A stretch of DNA of 64,000 bases from Treponema sp. OMZ 838 (GTDB lineage Bacteria; Spirochaetota; Spirochaetia; Treponematales; Treponemataceae): NCBI RefSeq assembly GCF_000775995.1, contig NZ_CP009227.1:1902296-1966295 (forward strand), in the 5' to 3' direction. The notes beneath the pieces are model-generated. The model was not told the origin of the DNA and did not search any database. It was given only the letters and a program-made list of their open reading frames with translations. A program made the translations under genes and the position numbers. Below are positions 14,280 through 35,128 of the stretch, in pieces (position 1 is the stretch's first letter; the number at the start of each line of letters is the position of its first letter).

Positions 14280-14455
14280 ACCCAGTTAGAATATCATAAA
14301 ATGATACGATAGACAACGCTCATTTTGAATCTGTGTTGAACACCAAAACTACCGGTGACGGAATACTATAGAGCAGGAGACCATTCAAAATGTTCTATCT
14401 TTGAACAGCCTCCTATTCATTTTCTCGGTAATACAATATTGTACCGCCGCCTCTT

Positions 14456-14680
14456 TTACGGATGGCGTGCAGCTACTCCTTTTTCGATCAGTGATATCAG
14501 TTGATCTTCATACCAATCTTGGGAATAGGGTGCATGCTGGCGGACAATCGGCCGAACTTTTGCTTCGATGGTGTCCTTGCAGGCTTCGCAAATATCATAT
14601 TCGCGGATATGCCAATAGGTTCTTCCGGTTATGGGATTAACCAATTCTTTTTTGCAAATGTCACAATGTAAAGTTTTCAT
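14456..14680 (-). CDS. small zinc-ribbon protein (two CxxC pairs)
   Basis: 74 aa with CDIC ... CEAC. Confidence 0.4.
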   Translation of the reverse strand: MKTLHCDICKKELVNPITGRTYWHIREYDICEACKDTIEAKVRPIVRQHAPYSQDWYEDQLISLIEKGVAARHP

Positions 14681-14752
14681 AACGATGCTCTCCTAATAAT
14701 AAAGCTTGTATACAAAAGCATACCGTATATTCGTTTTTTTGTCGAGTCAATC

Positions 14753-14898
14753 GGGTAAACGCATCAGGCTGTTTTTTAACAACCCCGCAGAATTATTGAG
14801 GCTGTTCAACCAGAATTGAACCTCTTCGCGGTTCAAATGGTCTCACAGCCTCAATAATTCTGCGATTTTCATCTACCGTGCCTGATGCGTTTACCCTC
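14753..14898. repeat. 146-nt near-perfect long hairpin (MITE-like or structured RNA)
   Basis: Outer 17-bp perfect inverted repeat GGGTAAACGCATCAGGC / GCCTGATGCGTTTACCC, inner 20-bp perfect inverted repeat CGCAGAATTATTGAGGCTGT / ACAGCCTCAATAATTCTGCG, and central GAACC-TCTTCGC-GGTTC. Confidence 0.6.
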
Positions 14899-14929
14899 CG
14901 TATAAAAGAAACTTTCCGTAATCTCGCTA

Positions 14930-15395
14930 CTGCTTGGAACCACCGCCATCCATGGCGGTTCTGCCTCTCCAACGCTTTTGCAAATAGACGATGCAGATGC
15001 TAGGAGTTAGGCAAAAAAGTACCGCAGGCACGGTACAAAATGTACATCCCTGTACATTTTGTACCTACGTGTTTGCCCTGCAAACACGCTACTGACTAGA
15101 ACCACCGCCATCCGTGGCGGAAATGATACGTTGAGCATTTATTGCAGAAGCGGCACGGATGCCGCTGATTTAAACAGAAGCGATATTTCGGCTTTGCCGA
15201 AATTCGCCATTAAAAGTGTACACGGATGTACACTTTTAATGATGCGACGCAGTAGATGCACCGTATCTCCAACGCTTTTGAAATAGACGGTATAGATACA
15301 AGGAGCTAGCTGAAAATAAAGCGGAGGCGTATCTATGATACGTTGAGCATTTATTTTCAGCGTACGACGCAGTAGATATGCCGTATATTTCAAAA
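14930..15395. repeat. hairpin-dense intergenic repeat element, copy A of a multi-copy family
   Basis: Shares about 150-bp and about 130-bp modules with 28597-28985 and a core with 25655-25690. The modules include GAACCACCGCCATCCRTGGCGG, GGTACAAAATGTACA-TCCC-TGTACATTTTGTACC, CGTGTTTGC-NNN-GCAAACACG and GCYGAAAATAAA...TTTATTTTCRGC. Confidence 0.65.
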
Positions 15396-17102
15396 GGCTG
15401 TGTCGTTGATGCTATTAAGCCACTCCGTACACGCCGGTACTACGGAAGCAATGCAGCCTTCTTTAAAGGGATTTTTCAAGTTGGCCAGTTCCACCAGGCG
15501 GAGGAAGGAGTCGCGGCCGCCCGCTTTACAGAGACGCAGATAATCTTCCCAGGCCGTTTTGCGGTCGGAAAGGCTTTTTGCCCAGAATTGCAATGCGCAT
15601 ACTTGAGCAAGTGTGTAATCGATGTAATAAAACGGCGTACTGAAGATATGTCCTTGGCGCATCCAATAACCGCCGCGGTTCAAGAAATCGTTATCGTCGT
15701 AATCCCGTGCAGGTAGGTACTTTTTTTCGATACTGCGCCATGCAGCTTTTCGTTCTGCGGGGCTTGCTTCGGGATGCTCATATACCCAGTGTTGAAACTC
15801 GTCTACCGTAACGCCGTAGGGTAAAAACAGGAGCGCTCCGGATAGATGGGTAAAGCGGAACTTATCGGTTTGCTCTTCAAAAAACAGATTCATCCACGGC
15901 CATGTAAAGAATTCCATACTCATCGAGTGTATTTCGCAGGCTTCGTAGGTCGGCCATACGTACTCCAGCAGGCGGGCATTACGGCTCTGATAGGCTTGGA
16001 ATGCGTGCCCTGCTTCATGGGTCATTACCTCCACATCGTGCTGCGTATTGTTAAAGTTGGCAAAAATAAACGGCGCCTTGTAATCGGGAATTGTGGTACA
16101 ATAACCGCCTGCTGCCTTTCCTTTTTTTGCAAGCACATCGAGCATCTGATGCGAAGTCATGAAAGTAAAAAATTCATCGGTTTCCGGGGAAAGTTCCGCA
16201 TACATCTTTTTGGCATTTGCCAAAATCCAATCGGGATTGCCGTGAGGAATCGCATTGCCGGTGGTATATTCAAGCGGTTCATCATAGTAGTATAGCCGTT
16301 CCAACCCCAACCGTTTCGCCTGCCGTTTTCGTAAGTTCACGGCTATCGGCACAATTTCGCGGTAGATTTGATTCCGATAGGCAGCAACCATCTCGGCATT
16401 GTAGTCGGTTCTGCCCATCCGGTCGTATCCGAGCTGCACGAAGTTTTGATATCCGAGTTTTTTTGCGATGCGTGTACGCACTTTGACTAAATTATCGTAG
16501 ATGGAATCGAATTCTGCTTCGTGTTCCGCAAAAAAACCGTAGTAGGCTTTTGCCGCTTTTTTCCGTGTTGCACGGTCTTGATCCTGCATAAAAGGAGTCA
16601 GCTGCGCGAGCGTGCGTTTTTCTCCTGCAAATTCGATTTCTGCCGAAGCAATCAGTTTGTCGTAGCTGCTGGTAAGTTTGTTTTCTTCTGCTAAATCTTC
16701 CATAATAGAGGGTGAAAACACCTTCATATCAAGTTCGGTCATTGCGAAGATATGCGTCCCGAGTTCTTTTTCCAGCTCTTTACGGAACGATGAGGCAAGC
16801 AGTTTTTTATTAAAGCTATTGGTCATTTCGATATAAAACGGGTTTGATTCATCAAAAAACGTATTTTCGGCATCGTAAAAACCGTCACGGGTGTCGATAC
16901 TATGCCGTATTTCCGCAAGGGTCTGCATGGTTTGATAATGAGATTTGAGTTTTTGTATTTCATCAATGAGCGCGATCTGCTCTGCTGCCGAATGTGCGGC
17001 TTCGAACTGCTGTTCCGCTTTTTTAAATGCCGTTTTTAATGCCTCCATATCGGGGCGGGTATAGGGAAGGGCGGTAAATTGCTTCATTTCCGGTGTATTC
17101 AT
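15390..17102 (-). CDS. pepF: oligoendopeptidase F (M3B family zinc metallopeptidase)
   Basis: HEAGHAF zinc-binding HExxH motif and typical M3B length. The start is chosen at MNTPEMKQF, preceded by AAGGAG. Confidence 0.9.
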   Translation of the reverse strand: MNTPEMKQFTALPYTRPDMEALKTAFKKAEQQFEAAHSAAEQIALIDEIQKLKSHYQTMQTLAEIRHSIDTRDGFYDAENTFFDESNPFYIEMTNSFNKKLLASSFRKELEKELGTHIFAMTELDMKVFSPSIMEDLAEENKLTSSYDKLIASAEIEFAGEKRTLAQLTPFMQDQDRATRKKAAKAYYGFFAEHEAEFDSIYDNLVKVRTRIAKKLGYQNFVQLGYDRMGRTDYNAEMVAAYRNQIYREIVPIAVNLRKRQAKRLGLERLYYYDEPLEYTTGNAIPHGNPDWILANAKKMYAELSPETDEFFTFMTSHQMLDVLAKKGKAAGGYCTTIPDYKAPFIFANFNNTQHDVEVMTHEAGHAFQAYQSRNARLLEYVWPTYEACEIHSMSMEFFTWPWMNLFFEEQTDKFRFTHLSGALLFLPYGVTVDEFQHWVYEHPEASPAERKAAWRSIEKKYLPARDYDDNDFLNRGGYWMRQGHIFSTPFYYIDYTLAQVCALQFWAKSLSDRKTAWEDYLRLCKAGGRDSFLRLVELANLKNPFKEGCIASVVPACTEWLNSINDTAF

Positions 17103-17457
17103 TAATAGGCTCCTTACAATTGAACATCTGAACAAAGTGTTAACTTTGGAAGGTGTTCAATTCGTGCGCAGGCAGCGCACATACAATCTGCAAGTTTGCA
17201 CAAAGCAAACTTGACGTGTTTTTCAGCGGTACCATTTGTACCGCTGAAAATAAACATTCCTATGCTTTTTATAAAATTATACGGAGCGATTATAGCATAA
17301 GGCCGATATTTAGGACAGCATCGGGAATTCTCAGTAGAAATTCTTATATACACTTGACGGATATTCGATTAATTTGTATATATACGGCAATTAAAATATA
17401 AAGTTCCCTGATGCGTTGCATCAGTGAATCCCGCATTTTTTATTATGGAGTCTACTC

Positions 17458-19293
17458 GTGAAGAAACCTTTAATTATCTTTCTTTCAATCCTGTCTATTT
17501 TGTTCTTTTCAGCATGTAATAACAATTATCCCACGACCATCCCTGTTACGGGTATTGCATTTGAACCGGAACTTTCCACAAATCCAATTTCGCTTGCCAA
17601 GGATGAAACATATCAGCTTAATGCAAAGGCAAAGCCCGATAATGCAACGAATAAAAGGCTCGCCTATACTTCGGACAACCCAACTATTGCTTCCATCGAC
17701 GATAAAGGGTTGATTACCGCAAAAGCGGTTGGAAATGCACTCATTACCATAAAAGCAGCAGACGGTATTTCAAAAACGGTGAATCTGACTGTTACTCCGG
17801 AGCCGGTCCCGGTTACAAGCATTGTAATTGAGGGAACGACACCTGCCTCTTTATTTATCGGTCAAAGCTATAGAATCATGGCAAAAGCCCAACCTGATGA
17901 AGCAACGAATAAAGAGCTTTCCTACACCGCAGACAATAATAAAGCACATGTAACTTCCGATGGTACGGTAACCGCTCAATCGGAAGGGAGTGTAAACATA
18001 ACAGTAAAGTCCCAAAGCAATCCCGAAATTACAGCGACGGTTACTATCACTATAAAACAAAGACCCTCAATTGAACTGATAACAGAAGAAATTACGAGTG
18101 AAAGCAGTGAATCAAATCTGAATCTTGAAATAAAAACGCTCCATGGCAAGCTTTCATATACGCCTAAAATTGTTGGAGAAGGAAGCGGTTGGCTGAGCAT
18201 TATCAGTACAGACAACACTACAGATATGGAGAAAGATACCATATACCTAAAAGCTATTCAAAATAAAACTGTATGGAAGCGAACTGCCTATATTAACTTC
18301 GAGGATGGATCCAATCAAGTGATCAAAAATGCCAAGGGGGAAAAACTCGAAGTAAAAGTAGTTCAGAAAGAGAACGAGAACCCGAACGTAACAATAAAAT
18401 GGGTACACGGAATAGATGCTCCGACTGCAGATGAAAAAACAAAAATTGAAGTTCCTCATGTCGGTCAAGCTAAAAAATTTTATTGGAATGATGAAAATAT
18501 TTTCTTCTGGTATGAAAATGCGAATACGAAATGGTTCAACAATAGAAAGGCAAAGCCCGTAGGTGCAGTTGCTACCGACGGCGGCGATAGCAACCAATGC
18601 TGGGGTAAAACCGCTTCCAATATGCTGCATTGGTGGTTTGAGCAGAATGAAAACAATATAAATCAGTACATAGCAAAGAAAAATATAACAAGTCCTAAAA
18701 AGGATGAATATCAACATTTTTATTACCGGAATTTTTCCGGTAATCAAGAGCCGGAGAAAAGTTATATAGCAAAAACTTTCAGGACAAAGGCACATAACGG
18801 AGAGCTGGGGGGATATGTTATAAGCGGTCTTGCATGGTATCTCTACGGTAATACAAGTGCATCACACCCCAGCACCCCCACATACGAAGGACCTGCTTTA
18901 TTCAAAGATGTGTTTAGCAAAGAAGACACTCCTATTGAAGATAAAATTGTTATGAACAAAGTTGAGTTTGAAACAGTAATAACCGAAGCGCTTAATTCTA
19001 AAAAAGCAATCGGACTACACATGCGGGGTACAAAGGGCGGAAAAGATTATGGCCATGCAATAACACTTTGGGGTGCGGTCTTTGATGAAGAGGAAAATAT
19101 TATTGCAATCTATGTTGTTGACAATAATTATAAAGAAAACAGGATATTCCCTTATGGAATCTACTATAGAGATGGTCGCCCTTACATTTTTAACTATCCA
19201 AACAATGCATTCGCTACTGATAGGTATGTGGGTGAAGTAATTACCCTAGACAAAGCTGAAGCCCAGTGGCTGGATTGGCTGAGTAAACACTAG
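17458..19293 (+). CDS. lipoprotein with two Big_2 Ig-like domains and a C-terminal IdeS/Mac-1 (peptidase C66) cysteine protease domain (dentipain-like)
   Basis: GTG start after a GGAG RBS; lipobox LFFSAC. Big_2-like segments (ITAKAVGNALITIKAADGISKTVNLTV). The C-terminal region matches the IdeS catalytic-Cys region (CWGKTASNMLHWWFEQN vs IdeS CGAATAGNMLHWWFDQN) and the His region (HAITLWGAVFDEEENIIAIYVVDNN vs HVINLWGADFDSNGNLKAIYVTDSD). Confidence 0.8.
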   Translation: MKKPLIIFLSILSILFFSACNNNYPTTIPVTGIAFEPELSTNPISLAKDETYQLNAKAKPDNATNKRLAYTSDNPTIASIDDKGLITAKAVGNALITIKAADGISKTVNLTVTPEPVPVTSIVIEGTTPASLFIGQSYRIMAKAQPDEATNKELSYTADNNKAHVTSDGTVTAQSEGSVNITVKSQSNPEITATVTITIKQRPSIELITEEITSESSESNLNLEIKTLHGKLSYTPKIVGEGSGWLSIISTDNTTDMEKDTIYLKAIQNKTVWKRTAYINFEDGSNQVIKNAKGEKLEVKVVQKENENPNVTIKWVHGIDAPTADEKTKIEVPHVGQAKKFYWNDENIFFWYENANTKWFNNRKAKPVGAVATDGGDSNQCWGKTASNMLHWWFEQNENNINQYIAKKNITSPKKDEYQHFYYRNFSGNQEPEKSYIAKTFRTKAHNGELGGYVISGLAWYLYGNTSASHPSTPTYEGPALFKDVFSKEDTPIEDKIVMNKVEFETVITEALNSKKAIGLHMRGTKGGKDYGHAITLWGAVFDEEENIIAIYVVDNNYKENRIFPYGIYYRDGRPYIFNYPNNAFATDRYVGEVITLDKAEAQWLDWLSKH

Positions 19294-19316
19294 CCGACAA
19301 CTTTTATAAATAAGCT

Positions 19317-19355
19317 CTCAGCTGTAAAAAGTTCAGAAAGAGCTTTTTACAGCTG
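19317..19355. terminator. hairpin terminator CAGCTGTAAAAAG-(loop)-CTTTTTACAGCTG
   Basis: 13-bp perfect inverted repeat 24 nt after the stop of the IdeS-like gene; further hairpins at 19395-19445. Confidence 0.5.
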
Positions 19356-19594
19356 CGTAGTATGCAAATACATTAAAAACCGTACAGGATTTTGAACAAG
19401 CAGACACATTCATTATGAATGTGCCCGCTTTTTTTATGGGATGGGGTGTATCATAAAAATAAGCGGGGTACGACAACTTTCTATTTGACATTATAGCCAT
19501 ATCGTTTTATTCTAATAACGATTACTAATACGAAAATCGTCTAAGAGTAACCGCTTCTTTCGAACGATTCAGTATATAAAGGGATGAAAAAAGT

Positions 19595-20113
19595 ATGGCA
19601 ACAGAAACAAAAAATACGGAAGAATTGAATACCGCTTGGGTACAATGGGATAAAAAACTGGAACTCGGTATTCCGCGAATCGACAGTCAGCATCGTAAGC
19701 TGGTGGCAATGTGCAATGAGCTGCGTGAAGCGCTGATGAACCGTCAGAAACGGAGTAAAGATGAATGGCTGGTGACCGTAGGTAACGTACTGCGGCAAGC
19801 AGTAGACTATACTCAAACACACTTTATCGATGAAGAAAAATTGATGAAGGCGTGTGGCTTTTCCGGCTATGAAGCTCATAAACAGCGGCACAAGGAGTTT
19901 GTCCAAACAATTACTCGGGTATTGATGGACTTTGACGAAATGACCGTAACGATCGGTTTTGAGTTTGCCGACTACCTTAGGGATTGGATACTGTCGCATA
20001 TTGCTTACGAGGATAAGCAGTACTGTCCGGCTATGCGCTCCTTTTATCACACGTTGCAGGAATACAGCCAACAGAATCATACAGCCGATTCAACTGCCGG
20101 ACAGCAGCCTTAG
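19595..20113 (+). CDS. bacteriohemerythrin (hemerythrin-like metal-binding protein)
   Basis: His/Glu spacing of the hemerythrin HHE domain (H..KLV, HFIDEE, HKQRHKEF, SHIAYED). Confidence 0.8.
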   Translation: MATETKNTEELNTAWVQWDKKLELGIPRIDSQHRKLVAMCNELREALMNRQKRSKDEWLVTVGNVLRQAVDYTQTHFIDEEKLMKACGFSGYEAHKQRHKEFVQTITRVLMDFDEMTVTIGFEFADYLRDWILSHIAYEDKQYCPAMRSFYHTLQEYSQQNHTADSTAGQQP

Positions 20114-20253
20114 ATTAAATCCTTCGTACGAATAAAAAAATATTTATATATTGGCGATGCGACGTTTATATGCTATTATAAGACAGTAAAGGGAACTTCT
20201 AAAAAGCTTCAGTTTTTAGAAGTTTTCCTTAGATTTACTTGCGATGGAGATGT

Positions 20254-22311
20254 ATGAAATCATTCGTCCGAACGTTTGAACAGACAATTCCGCCTCGCGA
20301 TATGCAGCTCGGCGCTGTGTATGATGCCGCCGCTCAAAGCTGCCGTTTTTCTTTATGGGCGCCGACTTCCCGCGATGTGTCGGTAAACCTCTATCAAAAC
20401 GCCGGTGATTCATCGCCTGCTTTTACGCTTCCTCTTCGGTATGACGATGTAACCGGTCTGTGGTGCGGCATCTTTGCGGAACGGGATCCGGAACTGTTCT
20501 TTTACGATTACACGCTGACAAACGAAACGGGAACGCATACCGTGCTCGATCCGTACAGCCTCTCGATGGCGGCTTGTACCGGCAGCGGTGGTATCGGACG
20601 GGGCGCTATTATCAACCTGCAAAAAGAAACGCTCAAACCGGAGCGGGAATATCCGTATATCACCTTGCAAAAACGGGAGGATGCGATTATTTACGAAGTG
20701 TCCGTCCGCGATTTTACCGCAAGCCCCGACTCCGGCGTTAAAAATATCCCCGGTACGTATAAAGCCTTTATCGAAAAAATCCCCTATTTACGCGAATTGG
20801 GCATTACGCATATTCAGCTGATGCCGGTGCTGAACTTTTACTACACGGACGAGACAAATCAGCAGTATGAAGATGCCGGTACCGTGCATAACAACAACTA
20901 TAACTGGGGCTACGATCCGCACAACTATTTTACGCCCGAAGGCTGGTATGCAAGCGAGCCTGAAAATCCCGAAAGCCGCGTACGCGAATTGCGGGAGCTG
21001 ATTAATGAGTGCCATCGGGCAGGGCTCGGTGTAGTGCTCGACGTGGTGTATAATCATGTTGCGCGCACCGATCTTTTCGACGCGATTGTTCCGGGCTATT
21101 ATTTTCGGACAAATTCCGACGGCAGCTATACCAACGGCTCGTGCTGCGGGAACGATATTGCTTCGGAGCGGACGATGGTACGAAAGCTCATCGTAGATTC
21201 GGCGGTACACTGGGTTAAAAACTATAAGGCCGACGGCTTCCGGTTTGACCTGATGGGACTGCTCGATACCGAAACGGTGTTGGAGGCGTACAACCGCTGC
21301 AAGGAACTCAATCCGTCGGTGCTGTTTATCGGGGAAGGCTGGAAGATGTATAACGGAGCCGAAGGTACCGTCGGTATGGATCAGCGGTACATGACCGAAA
21401 CCGACAGCGTTGCCGTCTTTAACGATGAGTTTCGCGATTTGGTGAAAGCAGGCGGTGTGAATGAGGAAGGAAAGGGCTTTTTAACCGGCGGCAACGTCGA
21501 TCTTAGACAGCTCTTTTGCAACTGTATCGGTTTGCCTCAGTGCAATTACACCGCCGATAGCCCGGGTGATAACGTACAGTACCTTGTTTGCCACGACGGG
21601 CTTACGCTGCACGACTGCATCGCTCATAATGCAGGGCTTGATGAACGTATCCCCTCGCAACGGCAGGAGCTGATTGCCCGTATCAAACTCGGCAACGCGC
21701 TGGCGCTTACCTGTCAAGGGATCGCATTCTTACACGCCGGACAGGAGCGGGGTCGTACTAAGCCGAATGTGCACGGAGCGGCGGAAGAATGTACCGGTGC
21801 TTTTGTCCGCAACAGCTATGACGCTTCGGACAGCGTTAACCGCATTGTATGGACGCTCGATGAAGATTACGCTGAGCTGCTCGCATACACGCGCGGGCTT
21901 ATCGCGTTGCGGAAACGGTTTGACGTGTTTAAAATAGGAAATGCCGGACGCATTGCACAAGTCGCCGCGTTTTTGCCCGCAGAAGACGCAGCGGTTGCTG
22001 CATCGGGGGATTGCAGCGGTAACCGATGTGCCGTAAAGAGTGATGCCGGAGCATTGTCCGAAACGGAGAAGCAGTACGGGCAGGCATTCGGGTACACACT
22101 TGACTGGACGGACGGCACGTGGTTTTTGTTGTTTAATGCCGCGGGAACGGAACACTGTTTTACACTTGGCGGCGCATTACAAAAGCCTGTGGTTTTTGTC
22201 GACGGAGCGGCGGCATCGCCGGACGGTATTACACATCCGTCCGGTATACGATTTGAGCAAAACCGGATCATACTAGATCCGTACACTGCGGCTATTGTTC
22301 GCAGTAAATAG
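20254..22311 (+). CDS. type I pullulanase (GH13, alpha-1,6-glucosidase)
   Basis: GH13 catalytic regions VVLDVVYNH, DGFRFDLMG and YLVCHD. Start taken at MKSFVRT after a GGAG RBS; the listed ORF begins 15 nt earlier. Confidence 0.85.
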   Translation: MKSFVRTFEQTIPPRDMQLGAVYDAAAQSCRFSLWAPTSRDVSVNLYQNAGDSSPAFTLPLRYDDVTGLWCGIFAERDPELFFYDYTLTNETGTHTVLDPYSLSMAACTGSGGIGRGAIINLQKETLKPEREYPYITLQKREDAIIYEVSVRDFTASPDSGVKNIPGTYKAFIEKIPYLRELGITHIQLMPVLNFYYTDETNQQYEDAGTVHNNNYNWGYDPHNYFTPEGWYASEPENPESRVRELRELINECHRAGLGVVLDVVYNHVARTDLFDAIVPGYYFRTNSDGSYTNGSCCGNDIASERTMVRKLIVDSAVHWVKNYKADGFRFDLMGLLDTETVLEAYNRCKELNPSVLFIGEGWKMYNGAEGTVGMDQRYMTETDSVAVFNDEFRDLVKAGGVNEEGKGFLTGGNVDLRQLFCNCIGLPQCNYTADSPGDNVQYLVCHDGLTLHDCIAHNAGLDERIPSQRQELIARIKLGNALALTCQGIAFLHAGQERGRTKPNVHGAAEECTGAFVRNSYDASDSVNRIVWTLDEDYAELLAYTRGLIALRKRFDVFKIGNAGRIAQVAAFLPAEDAAVAASGDCSGNRCAVKSDAGALSETEKQYGQAFGYTLDWTDGTWFLLFNAAGTEHCFTLGGALQKPVVFVDGAAASPDGITHPSGIRFEQNRIILDPYTAAIVRSK

Positions 22312-22341
22312 ATTTTTTTCATAACAGACTGGAGGTGTTAT

Positions 22342-23571
22342 ATGAAAAAAGCAATTATAAGGCTTTCTGCCTGTGTATCATTGATGCTTCTTCTTGCTCT
22401 TACGAGCTGCGGCGGAGGTTCCGAGAAGAAGGACGATAAAGCCGGCGCTATGAAAGGCGAAACGGTTACCATCAAAATATGGGAATCCGAAGGCCCCGAA
22501 AAAGATTTTATGCTGTTTGCTGCGGAAGAATACAAGAAAACGCATCCGAACGTATCCTTTGTGTATGAACCGGTTCAGTCGACCGATGCGCGCACAAAGA
22601 TCGAAATGGACGGCCCCGCAGGTGTAGGCGCAGATATCTTTGTTGCACCGCACGACCATATCGGCGCCCTTGTCGCAGGCGGTCATATTCTCCCCTTTGA
22701 CGATGCGTCCATCCTCGACAACTTTATTCCCGCTGCATTGACATCCGCCGCGTATGAGGGAAAAAACTACGGGTATCCGCTTGCAATCGAAACCTACGCA
22801 TTGTTCTATAATAAAGACCTTCTACCGGAAGCCCCCAAGACATGGGACGCGGTGGAAGCATTTGCAAAGACGTGGAACGATAAAGCTCAAAATAAATATG
22901 CATTGGTCTGGGGTGTCGGAAACGCATACTTTAACTATATTTTTATGAGCGGTTTCGGCGCACCGCTTTTCGGCCCGAACGGCGATGATCCCAAACAGCA
23001 CAACGTCAATAGCCCCAATGCTATTACCGGCTTAACCTATTTCCAGAGCCTTCGCAAGAAGATGCTCGATGTTCCGTCAGGCGACATTACCGATGATTTC
23101 TGCAATTCCTCGTTTACGGAAGGTAAAGCCGCGATGATTATTACCGGCCCGTGGAAGATCTCCGATTTTTCAAAAACAGGCCTTAACTACGGTATTGCAC
23201 CCATTCCGGTCTTCCCCGGCATGACCAATCCTCCGGCATCGTTCTCCGGTCTTCGCATGGCCTTTGTCAGCGCTTACAGTGATCATCCGGCGGAAGCGCA
23301 AGACTTTGCAAAATTCCTTACTTCAAAGCCGATATTGGAAAAACGGTATGAAATGACCAAGCAAATTCCGCCCCGCTCCGATATCACCATCAGCGATCCG
23401 TTAAGCCAAGGTATTTTAGCGCAGGCGCAATACGCAACACCGATGCCCACCATTCCCGAAATGGGCAAATACTGGTCTGCAATGAATGCAACTTTTACGA
23501 ATATCTGGGACGGCGGCAATGTTACGGAAAAACTGAATGCTGCTGCGGCTACAATGGAGACGATACAATAG
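22342..23571 (+). CDS. maltose/maltodextrin ABC transporter substrate-binding lipoprotein (SBP family 1, MalE-like)
   Basis: Lipobox LALTSCGGG, SBP_bac_1 architecture, and a position between two GH13 genes and malFG. Confidence 0.85.
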   Translation: MKKAIIRLSACVSLMLLLALTSCGGGSEKKDDKAGAMKGETVTIKIWESEGPEKDFMLFAAEEYKKTHPNVSFVYEPVQSTDARTKIEMDGPAGVGADIFVAPHDHIGALVAGGHILPFDDASILDNFIPAALTSAAYEGKNYGYPLAIETYALFYNKDLLPEAPKTWDAVEAFAKTWNDKAQNKYALVWGVGNAYFNYIFMSGFGAPLFGPNGDDPKQHNVNSPNAITGLTYFQSLRKKMLDVPSGDITDDFCNSSFTEGKAAMIITGPWKISDFSKTGLNYGIAPIPVFPGMTNPPASFSGLRMAFVSAYSDHPAEAQDFAKFLTSKPILEKRYEMTKQIPPRSDITISDPLSQGILAQAQYATPMPTIPEMGKYWSAMNATFTNIWDGGNVTEKLNAAAATMETIQ

Positions 23572-23687
23572 GGTATTGGGGCTGTCCAAAAACTGAAAGC
23601 CTATCGACTTTTTCTGTAAGGAAATTATTCGTTATATCCGCTAAAGTGAATTGCGAAACAGTTTTTGGACAGTTTCCTTGGATATAG

Positions 23688-25598
23688 GTGCTTGGTATGC
23701 AGTTTTCGGCAATAGAACATCGCAGTACGGATAATTTTTGTTATCCCCTCAATGAAAATGAGCTCATGATCGGCATTAAAACCGGCAGCGACATACGGCG
23801 TGTATTTATTATCTACGGAGATCCGTTCGACGGTTCGGTAACACCGGACGGCTGGGCATGGGAAGGCAAACGGCAGGAAATCACTCGCAAAAAAGATCTT
23901 CCGTATCATACATGGTGGCAGGTAACGGTTACGCTTCCTTATGGACGGTGTAAATACTGCTTTGAACTGCACGGTCAAGATGAAGGCGATGTCCGCTACT
24001 GTCTGGAAAACGGGTTTTACACGGCAGAGGAGCTTGTTACGCTGCGCCGAATAACCGGTAATTTTCCCGGTTTTGAGTTTCCGTGGCTGGACGGCGCCGA
24101 ATGCGTCCGCGTACCGGATTGGGTACCCCGCACGGTGTGGTATCAAATTTTTCCCGATCGGTTTTGCAGGGATACCGCTTCGCAGAAACCGAATGCTTTG
24201 CCGTGGCCCGCTGCCGAGGATGCCGTTACCAACAATGAACACTATGGCGGTACGCTTCGGGGTATTATCGAAAAGCTCGACTATCTTGCCGATTTGAACA
24301 TTACCGGTTTATATCTTAATCCGGTTAATGCTTCGCCGAGTGTGCATAAGTATGATACATCCGATTATTTGAATATCGATCCTGCATTCGGTACTGCGGA
24401 AGACTTATGCATGTTGGTGAAAGAAGCCCATGCACGCGGTATAAAAGTGATGCTGGACGGTGTCTTTAACCACTGCGGCTGGGACTTTGCACTGTGGCAG
24501 GATGTTGTCCGCAACGGAAAAGCCTCGCCGTATTTCGATTGGTTTATCGTACAAGAATGGCCGTTTGAAACCGTTGCAGAACCGGAATGTGAAGCCGCCG
24601 CGAGCCGACCGTCCGGTACAAACGGAAAAAGCGGACGATACAGCGTTTTTGCGTATGTCGATACGATGCCAAAGCTGAATACCAATAATCCTGCCGTCAT
24701 CGATTATCTGCTGAACGTATGCGAAACATGGGTGCGCAGTTATGATATTGACGGGCTCCGGCTCGATGTTGCGAATGAGCTTTCGCACACATTTTGCAGG
24801 CAGCTTTATCGGCGGATGCGCAGTCTTAAAAAAGGCTTTTACCTGCTCGGTGAAATATGGCGCAGTGCCTTGCCGTGGCTGCGCGGCGGCGAGTTGGATT
24901 CGGTAATGAATTATCCGCTCGCGCTGTGCTTTTGGAAATTCTTTTACGATAAAACGCTGCCTGCCCTGACTTTGGAGCAGGACATAAACGCTGTTTTTAC
25001 GGCCTATCCCGAACCTGTTACCGTAGGCCTGTTTAATCTGCTGGACTCCCATGATACGCCGCGCCTTTTTACCCGCAACGGCGGCGATGTGTCCGCCGTA
25101 TGGCAGCAATACGCCCTGCTGTTGAGCCTGCCCGGTTCGCCGTGTATCTATTACGGCAGCGAGGTTTTGCTTGCAGGCGGAAATGATCCCGATTGCCGCC
25201 GCTGTATGCCGTGGCAGGCTATCGAAGCAGGTGAATACGCCGAACCGATGAGCATGATGCGGCAGTTGATTGCTTTGCGCTATACGCATCCGGCAATGAC
25301 CGCTTCCGGTTACTCATATCTGCATGACGTGCCGCTTACCGAAAGCGAACCGAATAGAATTATTCATTTGCAAAAGTATGCCGAAACGGTAGAACCTGCG
25401 GAAACTACGGAGACCGTTGAAAGCGCGGAAATTCCGATTACGCGGAGCATAGACCTCATTCTCAATTGCGGTACGGCTCCGGTATCAATCGCACAGGTAA
25501 TAGATGAAAAGGCACGGGTATACCTCTCCCTGCGCTGCAGGGATAAAACGGTACAGCCCGGCGGCTTTATCTTTTTTGAACACCTCATCAACCGATGA
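23688..25598 (+). CDS. GH13 neopullulanase / cyclomaltodextrinase / maltogenic amylase family enzyme
   Basis: N-terminal domain followed by GH13 regions DGVFNHCG, GLRLDVANE, GEIW and LLDSHDTPR. Confidence 0.85.
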   Translation: MLGMQFSAIEHRSTDNFCYPLNENELMIGIKTGSDIRRVFIIYGDPFDGSVTPDGWAWEGKRQEITRKKDLPYHTWWQVTVTLPYGRCKYCFELHGQDEGDVRYCLENGFYTAEELVTLRRITGNFPGFEFPWLDGAECVRVPDWVPRTVWYQIFPDRFCRDTASQKPNALPWPAAEDAVTNNEHYGGTLRGIIEKLDYLADLNITGLYLNPVNASPSVHKYDTSDYLNIDPAFGTAEDLCMLVKEAHARGIKVMLDGVFNHCGWDFALWQDVVRNGKASPYFDWFIVQEWPFETVAEPECEAAASRPSGTNGKSGRYSVFAYVDTMPKLNTNNPAVIDYLLNVCETWVRSYDIDGLRLDVANELSHTFCRQLYRRMRSLKKGFYLLGEIWRSALPWLRGGELDSVMNYPLALCFWKFFYDKTLPALTLEQDINAVFTAYPEPVTVGLFNLLDSHDTPRLFTRNGGDVSAVWQQYALLLSLPGSPCIYYGSEVLLAGGNDPDCRRCMPWQAIEAGEYAEPMSMMRQLIALRYTHPAMTASGYSYLHDVPLTESEPNRIIHLQKYAETVEPAETTETVESAEIPITRSIDLILNCGTAPVSIAQVIDEKARVYLSLRCRDKTVQPGGFIFFEHLINR

Positions 25599-25599
25599 A

Positions 25600-25780
25600 C
25601 TTCCGTGTACATCGGTTGATGGCGAATTTTGGCAATGCCAAAATATCGCTTCTGTTATAACCACCGCCATCCGTGGCGGTAAAGTTTGCGGTGCAAACTC
25701 GATTATTTACGGGTGCGCCGTCCTGAACTTCGGAGCAAAGCTCCTCGTTGCAGGACATGCGCACGGCTAAAAACTTTTTC
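25600..25780. repeat. partial copy (copy C) of the hairpin repeat family
   Basis: Contains AACCACCGCCATCCGTGGCGGT plus the hairpins ATTTTGGCA-ATGCC-AAAAT and GTTTGCGGTGCAAAC. Confidence 0.5.
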
Positions 25781-25824
25781 GGATGTTTAAACATCCTGCA
25801 AAAGTTTTTATAGGAGGAGTTTTA

Positions 25825-27207
25825 ATGGCTACAACGACCTTACAAGGCGCTGCCGTTATCGACAAATCAATTATCAAAAAGACATCAACCGCATCGACGT
25901 GCTTTATGGGGCTCGGTCAGATTCTCTATTTAAAGCAATACGTGCGCGGCGCCTTTTTCGCTTTGATGGAATTGGCGGTCTTATTTTTGATCTTTTTTGA
26001 TCAGACGGTTATGCAGTTCAATGGAAAAGGCCCTATCGTGCGGAGTCTGATCGGCCTTATCACACTCGGAGATGAAAAACCGAATGTCCCCATCAAGATG
26101 AAGGATCATTCCATCTTCATGATGATCGGCGGTCTTATCACCGTATTGCTGCTCGTCGTGTTTATCTGCGTGTATGTCGCGAACGTGATCACTGCGAAAA
26201 AAACGGCAGCATATATCGTCGAAAAGCAGCGTTATCCATCCGTTGAGGAAGCCCGCAAGAAGTTTGTCGAATCGGCGTTTCCGTATCTCGGATTGAGCCC
26301 TGCGATCCTGTTGATGCTGTTTTTCACTGTTTTGCCGCTCATCTTTTCGGCGCTGGTCGCCTTTACGAATTACTCATCGCCCAAGCACATTCCGCCGAAC
26401 AACCTTGTCGACTGGGTCGGTTTTGAAAACTTTATCACGATGTTTAATTCAAAGATGGCAAACAGCTGGTTCTCCGCCTTCGGGCGCGTCGCTCTGTGGA
26501 CGGTTATCTGGGCATTCTTTGCAACCACAACCTGTTACTTTACCGGTATGATCTTCGCGGTTATCCTCGTCGACAAGCGCATCAAGCTGCCGAAATTCTT
26601 CCGAACCGTGTTTATCCTACCATATGCTATTCCGGTTATGCTGAGTTTGTTCATTTGGGCGAACCTTTTAAACGGAACATTCGGCCCCATCAACCGCTCG
26701 CTGATGCAGTTCGGTCTTTTGAGTGAACCGATTAAGTGGCTTTCCGACCCGTTTATGGCAAAGATTACGATGCTGTTGGTCAATATTTGGATCGGTTTTC
26801 CATATAGTATGATATTGATTACCAGCAATATGACGGCCATCCCTGCGGATATTTATGAGGCGGCAACCATCGACGGTGCGAATAAATTGCAGCAATTCTT
26901 CCGCATCACCCTTCCGTTGGTGTTGTTCCAAACGATGCCCATTCTCATTATGCAGTTTGCTGCCAATATCAACAACTTCGGTGCGGTATTCTTCCTTACT
27001 GCCGGCGGTCCGAATCTTGACGACAGTATTCAGACAAAGGCGGGCGCAACCGATCTGTTGATTTCGTGGATTTATAAACTCACGTATGATACGCCGACTT
27101 TGTATAACCTTGCCTCGGTACTTTCCATCCTCGTGTTTGTCGTGCTGGTGCCGTTCGCAGTCTATAATTTTACGCATACCAAGGCGTTTAAAGAAGGAGA
27201 ACTGTAA
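25825..27207 (+). CDS. malF: maltodextrin ABC transporter permease MalF-like (long N-terminal extension)
   Basis: BPD_transp_1 permease with the EAA loop region (EAATIDGANKLQQFFRITLP). Start at MATTTLQG after a TAGGAGGAG RBS. Confidence 0.85.
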   Translation: MATTTLQGAAVIDKSIIKKTSTASTCFMGLGQILYLKQYVRGAFFALMELAVLFLIFFDQTVMQFNGKGPIVRSLIGLITLGDEKPNVPIKMKDHSIFMMIGGLITVLLLVVFICVYVANVITAKKTAAYIVEKQRYPSVEEARKKFVESAFPYLGLSPAILLMLFFTVLPLIFSALVAFTNYSSPKHIPPNNLVDWVGFENFITMFNSKMANSWFSAFGRVALWTVIWAFFATTTCYFTGMIFAVILVDKRIKLPKFFRTVFILPYAIPVMLSLFIWANLLNGTFGPINRSLMQFGLLSEPIKWLSDPFMAKITMLLVNIWIGFPYSMILITSNMTAIPADIYEAATIDGANKLQQFFRITLPLVLFQTMPILIMQFAANINNFGAVFFLTAGGPNLDDSIQTKAGATDLLISWIYKLTYDTPTLYNLASVLSILVFVVLVPFAVYNFTHTKAFKEGEL

Positions 27208-28091
27208 TGAAAAAGCATTCTCTGAGTACCATACTGGTGCTGATTATCCTGTATACCGTCCTTATTTCGACGGTGCTCTTTGTCCTCTATCCCGTTGCCT
27301 TTACCGTCGGCGCGGCGTTTACCAAAACCAATTCGTTGGCGGCAACAAGCATTTCTCCTATTCCCAAGGAACCGTCGGTGTATCAGTTTAAACGGCTTTT
27401 AACACCTGCCGACAAAATCGTCGAAGGTACAACCGATGTACGTGGTACAAACTACGTTAAATGGTACGGAAATACCCTCAAAATTGCGGTGTTCAATGTT
27501 CTTTTGACCTTGGCTGTCTGTGTAACCGCCGCCTATATCTTTTCCCGGTTTAGGTTCCCGCTGCGGAAGCCGCTGCTCGCTTCTATGATTGTGCTGCAGA
27601 TGTTCCCAAGCTTTATCGGAATGGTTGCAACGTATGTACTGCTATGGAAGATAAACGGCTTAAATACCCATTGGGGACTCCTTTTGGTATATGCGGCGGG
27701 CAGTGTGCCTTTTAACGTATGGCTGATGAAAGGCTATTTTGATACGGTGCCGAAAAGCGTTGAAGAAGCCGCCCATGTCGACGGTGCCGGTTCGTTTACC
27801 ACATACGTGAAAATCGTACTGCCGATGGTAAAGCCGATGATTATGTTCCTTGCGCTTACCAGCTTTACCGCACCGTGGATGGACTTTATCTTCCCGCGCC
27901 TTATTTTGCGCAGCGATGATAAAAAGACCTTGGCACTCGGCCTTTTCGAGCTGATTAACGGCCGCGCAAACGATAACTTTACGATGTTTGCTGCAGGCGC
28001 GCTGCTCGTAGCAGTGCCCTTTACGCTGCTGTTTATGGCAGGACAGAAATTCCTATTAAAGTCCCTTGCCGCCGGAGCGGTAAAAGAGTAG
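27207..28091 (+). CDS. malG: maltodextrin ABC transporter permease MalG-like
   Basis: EAA loop (EEAAHVDGAGSFTTYVKIVLPMVKP); translationally coupled to malF (ATGA overlap). Confidence 0.9.
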   Translation: MKKHSLSTILVLIILYTVLISTVLFVLYPVAFTVGAAFTKTNSLAATSISPIPKEPSVYQFKRLLTPADKIVEGTTDVRGTNYVKWYGNTLKIAVFNVLLTLAVCVTAAYIFSRFRFPLRKPLLASMIVLQMFPSFIGMVATYVLLWKINGLNTHWGLLLVYAAGSVPFNVWLMKGYFDTVPKSVEEAAHVDGAGSFTTYVKIVLPMVKPMIMFLALTSFTAPWMDFIFPRLILRSDDKKTLALGLFELINGRANDNFTMFAAGALLVAVPFTLLFMAGQKFLLKSLAAGAVKE

Positions 28092-28224
28092 AAAAGGGCA
28101 GGGCAAAGAATTGGCAATGGGTAATTGGTGATGCGTAATTATATTTCCAATTACCCCAGCCTCGTCTAAAACGGTAGAAGAAAAGTTCAATGTAATTTTC
28201 ACTCTTACCGGGCAAGTAAAAGAA

Positions 28225-28545
28225 ATGAGCGACCGCCTGACTGAGGCAATGCGGGAACAGGAGAATGGAAGTAGGGAAGTGTTGACTGCCATTAAGAGCA
28301 TCAACACGGTGACGATAGAAGTACAGGCCGGCTCCGAAGAAATGTTAAAAGGCGGAGAAAGTGTTACGGGCGAAATGCATAAACTCGATGAACTTACTCG
28401 TATCATAACCGACAGCATGAATGAAATGGCTTCCGGTGCGGTGCGGATTAGTAACGCCATACAAGAAGTAAACGAAATCACGCAGAAGAATAAGCGGAAT
28501 ATTGGGAATTTGACGGAAGCAGTCGCTCAATTTAAAGTCAATTAG
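28225..28545 (+). pseudogene. remnant of a methyl-accepting chemotaxis protein (C-terminal roughly 100 aa of the signalling domain only)
   Basis: The 106-aa ORF matches the extreme C-terminus of MCP signalling domains (ASGAVRISNAIQEVNEITQKNKRNIGNLTEAVAQFKV). No ligand-binding, HAMP or TM portion lies upstream. Confidence 0.55.
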
Positions 28546-28596
28546 CGGCTCTGCCCCTAATGACCCCATCTCGCGCAAACTAAGCCGATGCCCCCG

Positions 28597-28985
28597 TATA
28601 TTTGCAAAAGGGCGCTTTCGAAAAAAAGCTTCCGTAAGCTTTTGCAAAGAGACGGTATAGATGCTAGGAGCGTACAAAAAACACCCGCAGGCACGGTAAA
28701 AAATGTACGTCCTGTACATTTTTTACCTACGTGTTTGCTGCGCAAACACGCTGCTGCGTAGAACCACCGCCGTCCATGGCAGTTCTGATACGTCGAAGAC
28801 TAATTTGTTCGCAGCAACAAAGTAGATACACACATCCAGCGCTTTTGCAAAGAGACGGCGTAGATACAAGGAGTTAGCCGAAAATAAAGCGCAGGCGTAT
28901 TTATATACGTTGAGCATTTATTTTCGGCGTGCGACGCAGTAGATGCGTCGTATATTTGCAAAAGACTAGTCGACACGAAAAAGTT
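28597..28985. repeat. hairpin-dense intergenic repeat element, copy B of the family
   Basis: Collinear with 14967-15120 and with 15268-15395. Stems carry compensatory substitutions relative to copy A. Confidence 0.65.
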
Positions 28986-34987: not shown

Positions 34988-35128
34988 AGTCTAAAGTTTT
35001 ATCTGGGGGCCTCACTCCGTTCGGGGCGCTACGTCCGCTGTTCCGCTTTCGCTCCATTCCTCCACTTCGTTTCTGTACGGACAAGGATGTCCGTGATGTG
35101 AATCAGCAGCTCCTATCGCTAACCCTGT
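34988..35128. repeat. left copy of a roughly 150-bp direct repeat flanking the GNAT/ATPase cassette
   Basis: About 90% identical to 37097-37245. Begins with the iteron-like CTAAAGTTTTATCTGG and the motif CCTCACTCCGTTCGGG. Confidence 0.7.

What the first reader, a model, noticed from the sequence alone, without database searches (positions are those of the whole stretch)
14930..15395. Multi-copy hairpin-dense intergenic repeat family whose stems carry compensatory substitutions (copy A)
A composite element of roughly 150-bp and 130-bp modules occurs here, again at 28597-28985, and partially at 25655-25690. Every module is a string of hairpins. Comparing copies A and B shows covariation that preserves the stems. 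GGTACAAAATGTACA-TCCC-TGTACATTTTGTACC becomes GGTAAAAAATGTAC-GTCC-TGTACATTTTTTACC. GCTGAAAATAAA...TTTATTTTCAGC becomes GCCGAAAATAAA...TTTATTTTCGGC. The loops and the stem CGTGTTTGC-NNN-GCAAACACG stay conserved. That is the signature of selection on secondary structure, whether a structured small RNA, a REP/MITE-like element or a protein-bound DNA cruciform. It is not neutral duplication. I do not recognise these from any described Treponema repeat. All copies sit at 3' ends of genes or between convergent genes.
Basis: seen in the sequence. Interest (0 to 1): 0.78.

Follow-up and report, generated by a model that had tools for sequence, protein, structure and literature searches.

The report
Mosaic of mobile hairpin repeats (TD-2)
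The hairpin-dense repeats are real: about half is the already catalogued Treponema "TD-2" motif and the rest is two undescribed palindromic repeat families, and together they behave like small mobile DNA elements whose hairpin loops exactly match the binding motif of the RNA regulator CsrA.

Summary
Copy A (14753-15396), copy B (28594-28964) and a third site (25583-25680) are packed with hairpins, and the A/B differences are compensatory. The novelty claim is not confirmed: four units pass the Rfam threshold for TD-2 (RF03162), reported from T. denticola in 2007 with unknown function. The remaining sequence has no Rfam match. It consists of X, a 121-124-nt long hairpin, and Y, a 145-nt hairpin.

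In about 100 Treponema loci I found 189 TD-2 matches and 68 X sites. Covariation is massive: 96-98% of cells are paired, and 0 of 500 shuffles reach the observed values.

The units behave as mobile, recombining DNA:
- They are gained, lost and swapped between close relatives.
- TD-2 is nested in the tips of X and Y.
- TD-2 and X interrupt Rpn-nuclease genes.
- TD-2 is inserted in frame into AAA-ATPase/PDDEXK_9 genes, with clean filled and empty paralogues.
- Orientation relative to neighbouring genes is random, and there is no conserved promoter or terminator.

This resembles RPE, BOX and BIME repeats.

One new point: both TD-2 loops are C-ANGGAN-G, and hairpin 3 reads A-C-A-N-G-G-A-N-G-U. That is the CsrA/RsmE consensus at every fixed position. 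Whether CsrA binds is untested.

The parts
14753..14897 (.). Y element: a 145-nt long hairpin, member of a third repeat family
   Evidence: RNAfold gives -80.9 kcal/mol for 14746-14905. Copies occur in L055, L067, L023, L048 and L039. In L104 and L055 the element is split at its tip by a TD-2 unit.
14880..14959 (-). Truncated TD-2 unit: hairpin 1 and half of hairpin 2 remain
   Evidence: CM R1 scores 38.6 bits. The orthologous positions in L037 and L036 hold a complete unit.
14974..15031 (+). Left arm of X element X1
   Evidence: nhmmer matches X positions 1-67; repeat families D4 and D7.
15028..15121 (-). TD-2 unit nested in the tip of X1
   Evidence: Rfam RF03162, 66.1 bits against a gathering score of 48.7.
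15122..15148 (+). Fragment of an X right half (GATACGTTGAGCATTTATTGC) from a different X subtype
   Evidence: Repeat family D9. Its arm does not pair with the X1 left arm (read).
15149..15245 (+). TD-2 unit, inverted relative to the previous one
   Evidence: Rfam RF03162, 72.5 bits.
15243..15266 (+). Distal right arm of X1 (GCGACGCAGTAGATGCACCGTAT)
   Evidence: Repeat family D11.
15275..15396 (+). Complete X element X2. Its 3' end contains the stop codon of the peptidase gene 15390-17102(-).
   Evidence: nhmmer full length. Absent from the orthologous locus L036. The stop codon TCA at 15390-15392 is read.
25583..25680 (-). Solitary TD-2 unit between an alpha-amylase-family gene and an ABC permease gene. 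It overlaps the last codons of the former.
   Evidence: Rfam 65.0 bits. It is 98/98 identical in L054 and L113, where the flanks are 89-98% identical.
28594..28610 (+). Remnant of an X right end (CCGTATATTTGCAAAAG)
   Evidence: Inverted repeat I1; matches the X consensus 3' end.
28639..28694 (+). Left arm of X element in copy B
   Evidence: nhmmer matches X positions 1-83 at 28639-28724, overlapping TD-2.
28691..28783 (-). TD-2 unit nested in the tip of that X
   Evidence: Rfam 67.1 bits.
28782..28829 (+). Right-half fragment of the interrupted X
   Evidence: nhmmer matches X positions 58-105.
28842..28964 (+). Complete X element. It ends 1 nt before the stop codon of the convergent UvrD-like helicase gene 28966-31449(-).
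   Evidence: nhmmer 103 bits; included in alignment A5; Pfam UvrD-helicase.

Best explanation
The finding is a mosaic of three families of short, non-coding palindromic repeats that populate oral Treponema genomes. The families are TD-2 (about 98 nt, three hairpins, already in Rfam), X (121-124 nt, one long imperfect hairpin) and Y (about 145 nt, one long hairpin).

Shown:
- The units act as DNA-level mobile or recombining modules. They are inserted, lost, truncated and exchanged between close relatives.
- They stack in tandem and in inverted pairs.
- TD-2 sits inside the tips of X and Y.
- TD-2 and X interrupt genes, and TD-2 also occurs as an in-frame insertion that keeps the reading frame open.

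Inferred:
- The stems stay paired because a copy must fold on a single strand to be propagated or retained.
- The invariant C-ANGGAN-G loops are the contact point for a protein that acts on that folded form.
- The enzyme is unidentified. The PD-(D/E)XK nucleases that the elements cluster with (Rpn family; AAA-ATPase/PDDEXK_9) are only candidates.
- When a copy is transcribed it adds very stable hairpins to the 3' or 5' end of the neighbouring mRNA.
- The compensatory differences between copies A and B reflect different family lineages brought in by module exchange, not selection on a gene at these two loci.
For: Identity of the units:
- Four Rfam TD-2 hits lie above threshold in the finding.
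- Nothing else in 14600-15600 matches Rfam at E<=1 apart from two far-sub-threshold chance hits.

Family size and spread:
About 100 of the 120 loci come from Treponema, including T. vincentii OMZ 806, T. putidum and many MAGs.
- The covariance model found 189 TD-2 matches, and nhmmer found 68 X sites.

Structure is kept:
- TD-2: 95.9% of cells paired, 25/27 pairs with two-sided changes, 673 compensated cells, 0/500 shuffles, slid controls 36-42%.
- X: 97.9% paired, 25/41 pairs with two-sided changes, 0/500 shuffles.

DNA-level behaviour:
- L036 lacks X2. In L037 the X1 has no nested TD-2 and a different arm subtype. The window holds a truncated TD-2 where L036 and L037 hold a full one.
- TD-2 splits X at positions about 54|58 and splits Y at its tip.
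- TD-2 is inserted in frame in AAA-ATPase_like/PDDEXK_9 proteins at two different sites. Empty alleles read QTEVHC-ATGRADCVV. Filled alleles read QTEVHC-YSTAMDGGGSTQQRCFGGAETRSQNYTRMYSFD-RRADCVV. A filled/empty paralogue pair from one MAG differs by a single 35-aa gap.
- The TD-2 + X composite replaces about 84 bp inside Rpn-family (TIGR01784) genes. Three species share one junction and have different deletions at the other.

Not a stand-alone gene or a cis-regulator:
- Orientation relative to neighbours is 21 sense, 27 antisense, 16 convergent and 15 divergent.
- There is no conserved upstream or downstream signal beyond TTTCAGA. Sequences resembling a -10 box number 31, against 35 in shuffles. 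A T-run follows 19/123 copies.
- The promoter scan shows no enrichment.
Against: - No target-site duplication, no transposase-type terminal repeats for TD-2, and no autonomous partner element were found.
- Copies within one genome are old: median pairwise identity is about 0.6 and nearest neighbour about 0.7-0.8. Yet almost all are perfectly paired. Orthologous copies are more conserved than their flanks, 98/98 against 89-98%. That looks like selection on each resident copy rather than on transposition competence alone.
- Detection with a structure-aware model favours intact copies, so decayed copies may be undercounted.
- G-U exceeds A-C in stems (57:20 for TD-2, 39:16 for X). This points to function on one strand, but the two elements point to opposite strands in the composite. 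This model does not explain that.
Confidence: 0.65

Rival explanations
1. TD-2 units are CsrA-binding RNA modules. Each unit, transcribed on the GGA strand, presents two high-affinity CsrA hairpins. The dispersed copies would then titrate CsrA, or place neighbouring mRNAs under CsrA control. The DNA mobility would only be the means by which these sites spread.
For: - Across 145 distinct copies, hairpin 3 reads A(96%) C(97%) A(98%) N G G A N G(100%) U(95%), and hairpin 1 reads C-C-A-N-G-G-A-N-G-G.
- 122 copies match CANGGANG in hairpin 3 and 136 in hairpin 1; 115 match in both.
- This equals the RsmE/CsrA optimal site A/U-CANGGANG-U/A, with the same two free positions (Schubert 2007, as cited in PMC6849547 and PMC5864733).
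- T. denticola has a fliW-csrA cluster (PMC9481697).
- G-U exceeds A-C on the GGA strand: 57:20, and 33:13 after clustering at 80%, p = 0.0045.
- Resident copies are conserved in orthologous loci.
- No paper in the library links TD-2 to CsrA.
Against: - Orientation relative to flanking genes is random, and copies antisense to both neighbours are not depleted (27 of 79).
- There is no conserved promoter or terminator.
- Inside Rpn genes TD-2 is antisense to the gene.
- The adjacent X element shows its strand signal on the opposite strand.
- The two GGA loops are about 70 nt apart. From my own recollection of the literature, this is at or beyond the spacing bridged by one CsrA dimer.
- csrA was not checked in the window's own organism.
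Confidence: 0.3
2. The clusters are selected mainly as transcript-end structures, that is terminators, insulators or 3' stabilisers of mRNA, as proposed for REP, ERIC and SPRITE repeats.
For: - All three window sites lie at gene 3' ends.
- The X 3' end lies 2-5 nt from the stop codon of a convergent gene in 8 of 15 such cases, including both X2 copies in the window.
- The hairpins are very stable.
- The X centre has an A-run, a G+C hairpin and a T-run, like a two-way terminator.
- One terminator-like site lies on the - strand at 15036-15019 followed by TTTTTT.
Against: - Only 19/123 TD-2 copies are followed by a T-run.
- Terminator-like sites are not enriched (2 found against 1.2 expected).
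- A terminator needs no invariant ANGGAN loop.
- Copies also occur between divergent genes, inside coding sequences and in tandem arrays.
Confidence: 0.15
3. TD-2 is a stand-alone small RNA gene acting in trans. This matches the Rfam label 'Gene; sRNA' and the 2007 suggestion.
For: [quoted passage not shown]
- Strong covariation.
- The G-U over A-C bias on one strand.
Against: - No conserved promoter or terminator.
- Tandem arrays and inverted pairs.
- Nesting in other repeats.
- In-frame copies inside protein-coding genes.
- Truncated copies.
Confidence: 0.07
4. The similarity of copies A and B is a neutral segmental duplication, and the paired changes are chance.
Against: - There are hundreds of copies in many genomes, with 96-98% pairing, and 0/500 shuffles reach the observed covariation.
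- The genes flanking A and B are unrelated.
Confidence: 0.01

Closest known systems
TD-2 RNA motif (Rfam RF03162; Weinberg et al. 2007, PMC1950547)
   Same: Four units in the finding are members above the curated threshold. They share the three hairpins, the AYGGAU and ACGGAU loops, and the covarying, variable-length stems that the authors reported.
   Different: - The motif was reported from T. denticola only, as 36 copies and a possible ncRNA.
- Here it occurs in a 44.7% G+C Treponema, in T. vincentii, in T. putidum and in many MAGs.
- It behaves as an insertable DNA module: nested, tandem, and in frame within genes.
- It is physically coupled to a second element, X.
Rickettsia palindromic elements (RPE)
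   Same: Both are short palindromic repeats found in intergenic DNA and also inserted in frame in protein-coding genes, so that the host protein gains a peptide segment (review PMC10969869). Neither has a known transposase.
   Different: - The sequences and hosts are unrelated.
- In-frame TD-2 copies were seen in one protein family only, at two sites.
- No single reading frame is open in most TD-2 copies. RPEs encode a conserved peptide.
Mosaic palindromic repeats: pneumococcal BOX, E. coli BIME/REP, enterobacterial ERIC
   Same: - Modular clusters of hairpin units in both orientations at gene ends.
- X resembles ERIC: a whole-length imperfect palindrome of about 125 nt that accepts internal insertions.
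- No coding capacity.
(The comparison rests on my own knowledge of these families.)
   Different: - There is no sequence similarity.
- REP stems are conserved in sequence and carry a 5' GTAG recognised by a RAYT transposase. TD-2 stems vary freely and only the loop is fixed.
- No RAYT was looked for or seen.
CsrA-sequestering RNAs (CsrB, RsmY, RsmZ) and CsrA sites in mRNA leaders
   Same: GGA sits in the loop of short hairpins, and TD-2 hairpin 3 matches the full optimal site A/U-CANGGANG-U/A.
   Different: - Those are single transcribed genes with their own promoter and terminator, carrying many GGA sites.
- TD-2 is a dispersed repeat with two sites per unit, no promoter, and random orientation.
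- Binding is untested.

Membership tests
TD-2 RNA (Rfam RF03162) | Covariance-model score at or above the curated gathering score (48.7 bits) | tested here: met
   15149-15245(+) scores 72.5 bits, 28691-28783(-) 67.1, 15028-15121(-) 66.1 and 25583-25680(-) 65.0.
TD-2 RNA (Rfam RF03162) | Three hairpins, with a conserved AYGGAU loop in hairpin 1 and an ACGGAU loop in hairpin 3 | tested here: met
   Alignments to the model cover positions 1-98 with no broken helices except single pairs.
TD-1 RNA (Rfam RF03155) | Score at or above 64.5 bits | tested here: not met
   There is no TD-1 hit in copy A or copy B. 25701-25815 scores 36.8 bits. The only true hit in the window is 58006-58115, outside the finding.
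MITE (miniature inverted-repeat transposable element) | Small, non-coding, multi-copy, with presence/absence differences between related genomes | tested here: met
   The elements are 98-145 nt. There are 189 TD-2 and 68 X sites in about 100 loci. Filled and empty sites were found. No single frame is open in most copies.
MITE (miniature inverted-repeat transposable element) | Target-site duplication flanking each copy | tested here: not met
   No duplication is visible at the filled/empty junctions in PDDEXK_9 or Rpn genes. In Rpn genes the composite replaces about 84 bp.
MITE (miniature inverted-repeat transposable element) | Terminal inverted repeats shared with an autonomous IS that supplies the transposase | tested here: inconclusive
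   X ends are inverted repeats (CTTTTGAAAATAGACGG / CCGTATATTTTCAAAAG), but they are part of a whole-length palindrome. TD-2 has no terminal repeats. No IS with these ends was seen in the loci, and whole genomes were not searched.
REP/BIME with RAYT transposase | 20-40-nt palindrome of conserved sequence with a 5' GTAG, and a RAYT gene flanked by REPs | tested here: not met
   TD-2 stems vary in sequence with only the loops fixed. GTAGAT occurs inside X arms but not at a hairpin foot. The recurrent neighbours are Rpn and AAA-ATPase/PDDEXK_9 genes, not Y1 transposases. A genome-wide RAYT search was not possible.
RPE-like in-frame palindromic insertions | The repeat is inserted in a coding sequence without breaking the frame, and homologues lacking it exist | tested here: met
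   L007, L013, L052 and L117 carry the insertion at site 1, and L025 carries it at site 2. The ORFs stay open at 570-586 aa. Empty homologues are L043, L089, L033 and L102.
CsrA-binding RNA (CsrB/RsmZ type or mRNA site) | GGA in a hairpin loop matching A/U-CANGGANG-U/A | tested here: met
   122/145 hairpin 3 loops and 136/145 hairpin 1 loops match CANGGANG. Hairpin 3 also keeps the flanking A-U pair.
CsrA-binding RNA (CsrB/RsmZ type or mRNA site) | Expressed on the GGA strand as a discrete RNA or as part of a regulated mRNA | tested here: inconclusive
   There is no conserved promoter or terminator, and orientation is random. No expression data are available.
CsrA-binding RNA (CsrB/RsmZ type or mRNA site) | Physical binding by CsrA | not testable with these tools
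   This needs EMSA, ITC or CLIP.
Integron attC site | R''/L''...L'/R' cores (RYYYAAC ... GTTRRRY) bounding gene cassettes | tested here: not met
   GTTGAGC occurs in the X right arm, but the left arm holds no matching RYYYAAC partner. The units do not bound ORF cassettes (read).
Intrinsic terminator | G+C-rich stem followed directly by a U-run | tested here: not met
   19/123 TD-2 copies have at least 5 T in the next 10 nt. The scan found 2 sites against 1.2 expected in 14300-15500.

The most novel reading that the evidence does not exclude
TD-2 is a mobile palindromic element whose two hairpins are genuine high-affinity CsrA sites. If so, a selfish repeat has scattered well over a hundred CsrA-binding hairpins through oral Treponema genomes. 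These would act collectively as an RNA sponge and as portable CsrA-control modules. The lineage is one where only the protein antagonist FliW is known so far; that last point rests on my own knowledge of the CsrA-FliW literature.
Probability: 0.3. Interest if true: 0.8.

Novelty: new member of a known kind. Interest (0 to 1): 0.5.

Why it matters
- TD-1 and TD-2 have sat in Rfam as orphan motifs since 2007. Showing that TD-2 is an insertable DNA module changes how it should be annotated: as a repeat, not an sRNA gene.
- The same applies to X and Y, which are unlabelled and seed spurious ORFs.
- It explains hairpin-dense intergenic regions and local synteny breaks in oral treponemes.
- It adds a spirochaete case to the short list of palindromic repeats that insert in frame into proteins.
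- The exact match of the loops to the CsrA site turns 'function unknown' into a one-experiment question. If binding is confirmed, it would be the first RNA antagonist or dispersed CsrA regulon module in a FliW-type CsrA system.

Tried and rejected
- **Exact-protein look-ups.** I looked up the flanking peptidase to find the source genome. Nothing is on record with either start codon.
- **Peptide search.** The first attempt failed because the query was too short. A 44-aa query around the TD-2-encoded peptide found no candidate, so the extent of in-frame copies in other protein families is unknown.
- **Replication-strand bias.** TD-2 orientation against local GC skew is 35:34. The apparent run of '-' copies in the first 0.7 Mb of T. 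vincentii was not supported by skew.
- **Integron attC sites.** Treponema integrons are known, but the core-site pattern is absent.
- **REP/RAYT.** The stems are not conserved in sequence, there is no GTAG foot, and no Y1 transposase lies nearby.
- **Coding potential.** All six frames are open in 31-61% of TD-2 copies, against about 15% of shuffles. No single frame is open in most copies, so TD-2 is not a gene.
- **Promoters and terminators.** None is conserved.
- **Phage or plasmid origin.** No match at blastn sensitivity.
- **Target-site duplications.** None is recognisable.
- **csrA in the window.** A motif scan for a CsrA-like ORF found nothing. This is a weak test covering 64 kb only.
- **Two weak Rfam hits.** frnS scores 28.9 of 60 bits and sot0042 13.2 of 88 bits. 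Both are chance alignments to the same hairpins.

Full report
**1. The observation**

The sequence at 14930-15395 and 28597-28985 is as described. Direct-repeat families link the two regions at 81-88% identity over 58-134 nt. The named hairpins are perfect inverted repeats of 9-15 bp.

- C to A at 15036, matched by G to T at 15061.
- T to C at 15311, matched by A to G at 15359.

Copy A folded as one strand gives -190.9 kcal/mol against -131.0 +/- 5.9 for dinucleotide shuffles, z = -10.2. The window has 44.7% G+C and only 26 perfect hairpins of at least 8 bp. Eight of them lie in these clusters.

**2. About half of it is a known family**

Rfam at gathering thresholds reports TD-2 (RF03162) at four places:
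- 15149-15245(+)
- 15028-15121(-)
- 28691-28783(-)
- 25583-25680(-)

It also reports TD-1 at 58006-58115(+). The alignments cover the whole model. The third site is therefore a complete unit, not a fragment.

TD-1 and TD-2 were described in 2007 as motifs with 28 and 36 copies in T. denticola only. They had covariation and modular stems. [quoted passage not shown] I found no later paper on them.

The rest of the clusters has no Rfam match at E<=1, apart from two far-sub-threshold chance hits.

**3. The other modules**

It is a 121-124-nt element whose two halves pair along their whole length. Its layout, 5' to 3', is:
- CTTTTGAAAATAGACGG
- GCAGATGC
- TAGGAGCCTAG
- a variable 12-bp stem
- GAGGCGTAC..GTACGTYGAG
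- the stem complement
- GTAGCGACAACGCAGATGC
- CCGTATATTTTCAAAAG

. RNAalifold on 29 copies gives 41 pairs, 25 of them with compensated changes. 97.9% of cells are paired, 0/500 shuffles reach the observed values, and slid controls give 36-51%.

Y, at 14753-14897, is a 145-nt hairpin with copies in at least six other loci.

**4. The family outside the window**

About 100 are Treponema: T. vincentii OMZ 806, T. putidum ATCC 700334 and many oral MAGs. The loci from other phyla have no TD-2, except two small contigs binned as Prevotella and Atopobium.

A covariance model built from six copies found 189 matches. On the best 150:
- 95.9% of cells are paired.
- 25 of 27 pairs show two-sided changes.
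- 673 cells are compensated.
- 0/500 shuffles reach this.
- Slid controls give 36-42%.

Copies within one genome are old and diverse. Median pairwise identity is about 0.6 and nearest neighbour about 0.7-0.8. The scan required a fixed hairpin 1 sequence, so variation in hairpin 1 is understated.

**5. Behaviour as DNA**

*(a) Orthologous loci at 88-92% identity differ by whole modules.* L036 lacks X2. L037 has an intact X1 of another subtype with no nested TD-2. Both have a full TD-2 where the window has a truncated one. L036 also lacks copy B and has different genes between the peptidase and helicase genes.

*(b) TD-2 lies next to X in a fixed opposite orientation.* In 26 cases it lies within 60 nt 5' of X (typically about 10 nt) and opposite, and in 10 cases 3' and opposite, against 8 in the same orientation. 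It also sits inside the tips of X and Y.

*(c) TD-2 forms tandem arrays,* for example L073 7620-7903 and L099 5965-6365.

*(d) TD-2 is inserted in frame and in sense in AAA-ATPase_like/PDDEXK_9 proteins at two sites.* The ORFs stay open at 570-586 aa, and empty homologues exist. Two paralogues from one MAG are 79% identical with a single 35-aa gap, which is the TD-2 unit.

*(e) The TD-2 + X composite interrupts Rpn-family genes.* These are TIGR01784, named 'T_den_put_tspse', and they are the commonest neighbours, with 32 ORFs in 20 loci. Three species share the TD-2-side junction but have different deletions beyond the X 3' end, with short CAAAAG-like homologies.

*(f) The X 3' end lies next to boundaries.* It lies 2-5 nt from the stop codon of a convergent gene in 8 of 15 such cases, including both complete X copies in the window. 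It directly precedes Rpn residue ~185-191 in at least 7 loci. Either X inserts at such boundaries, or flanking DNA is deleted up to a selected boundary.

*(g) Orthologous TD-2 copies in L014 and L083 show a compensated A-U to G-C change and what looks like an inversion of the hairpin 2 loop*.

**6. Not a stand-alone gene**

TD-2 orientation relative to flanking ORFs is 21 sense, 27 antisense, 16 between convergent genes and 15 between divergent genes.

The 70 nt upstream and 60 nt downstream of 123 copies show no conserved positions except TTTCAGA at the 5' edge. Sequences resembling a -10 box number 31, against 35 in shuffles. A T-run follows only 19 copies.

The promoter and terminator scan of 14300-15500 shows no enrichment. 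There is no link to local GC skew and no match in phage or plasmid collections.

**7. The loops**

Both terminal loops of TD-2 are hexaloops A-N-G-G-A-N closed by C-G. Hairpin 3 also keeps an A-U pair below, giving A-C-A-N-G-G-A-N-G-U. Each fixed position is conserved at 95-100% of 131 scored copies, and the two N positions are free.

This is the optimal RsmE/CsrA site A/U-CANGGANG-U/A. T. denticola encodes CsrA next to fliW. The match is striking and, as far as the library shows, has not been noted before.

Against an RNA role are the random orientation and the lack of promoters (section 6).

In favour of a single-strand role, G-U outnumbers A-C in stems 57:20, and 33:13 after clustering at 80% (p = 0.0045). 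[quoted passage not shown] I cannot reconcile these two strand signals.

**8. Interpretation**

The best-supported reading is a mosaic of mobile or recombining palindromic repeats. In behaviour it is closest to RPE (in-frame insertions), to BOX and BIME (modular clusters) and to ERIC (a long palindrome that accepts internal insertions) (plus my own knowledge). It is not a sequence member of any of them.

Several features go beyond a simple 'dead on arrival' selfish model:
- the near-perfect pairing of old copies
- the invariance of the loops
- the conservation of resident copies in orthologous loci, 98/98 against 89-98% in the flanks

These leave room for a host-level function. CsrA binding is the most specific candidate.

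What is shown: identity with TD-2, the new X and Y families, covariation, and DNA-level gain, loss, nesting and in-frame insertion.

What is inferred: the need to fold on a single strand, protein recognition of the loop, and any effect on transcripts.

**9. Verdict**

- Observation: confirmed.
- Interpretation: partly supported.
- Novelty: reduced, because TD-2 is known. The X and Y families, the composite architecture, the in-frame and gene-interrupting insertions and the CsrA-type loops are new.

Noticed in passing
window 58006-58115 (+): A full TD-1 RNA (RF03155, 75.9 bits against 64.5) lies upstream of the ORF that starts near 58048-58120. It shares the GAGUUUGC..GCAAAC hairpin with TD-2 but has no GGA loops.
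   Followed up: partly
window 25681-25815 (+): Directly after the solitary TD-2 there is a GAGTTTGC-type hairpin and a sub-threshold TD-1-like match (36.8 bits). The match ends at AUAGGAGG, the ribosome-binding site of the ABC permease gene at 25783.
   Followed up: partly
window 35011-35126 and 37131-37246: A 116-nt repeat (92% identical) in a minus-strand gene cluster carries another C-AAGGAU-G hexaloop hairpin (ACGGACAAGGATGTCCGT at 35077-35094 and 37197-37214) on the + strand. That strand is antisense to the local genes.
   Followed up: no
window 17135-28966 compared with L036 2843-7554: The closest relative found for copy A has different gene content between the peptidase gene and the UvrD-like helicase gene, and it has no copy B. 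The repeat clusters therefore sit at the edges of a variable segment.
   Followed up: partly
L053 4036-4941, L088 1945-2831, L058 1566-2186, L031 5465-6484: Rpn-family nuclease genes are interrupted by the TD-2 + X composite. In L053 and L031 the X 3' end supplies an ATG (GCAGATGCNCCGTATATTTTCAAAAG) in frame with the Rpn C-terminal part that follows.
   Followed up: partly
L014 4589-4687 compared with L083 1517-1615: Orthologous TD-2 copies differ by an apparent inversion of the hairpin 2 loop (ATTTGAC against GTCAAAC). This would be expected from strand switching or recombination within a DNA hairpin.
   Followed up: no
L074 384-701 and L002 2052-2149: Good TD-2 matches (76 bits) occur on contigs binned as Prevotella and Atopobium MAGs. 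This is either mis-binned Treponema DNA or transfer.
   Followed up: no
window 15036-15019 (-): The junction of the nested TD-2 and the X1 left arm creates a G+C hairpin followed by TTTTTT on the strand of the peptidase gene. It is the only terminator-like site inside copy A.
   Followed up: no
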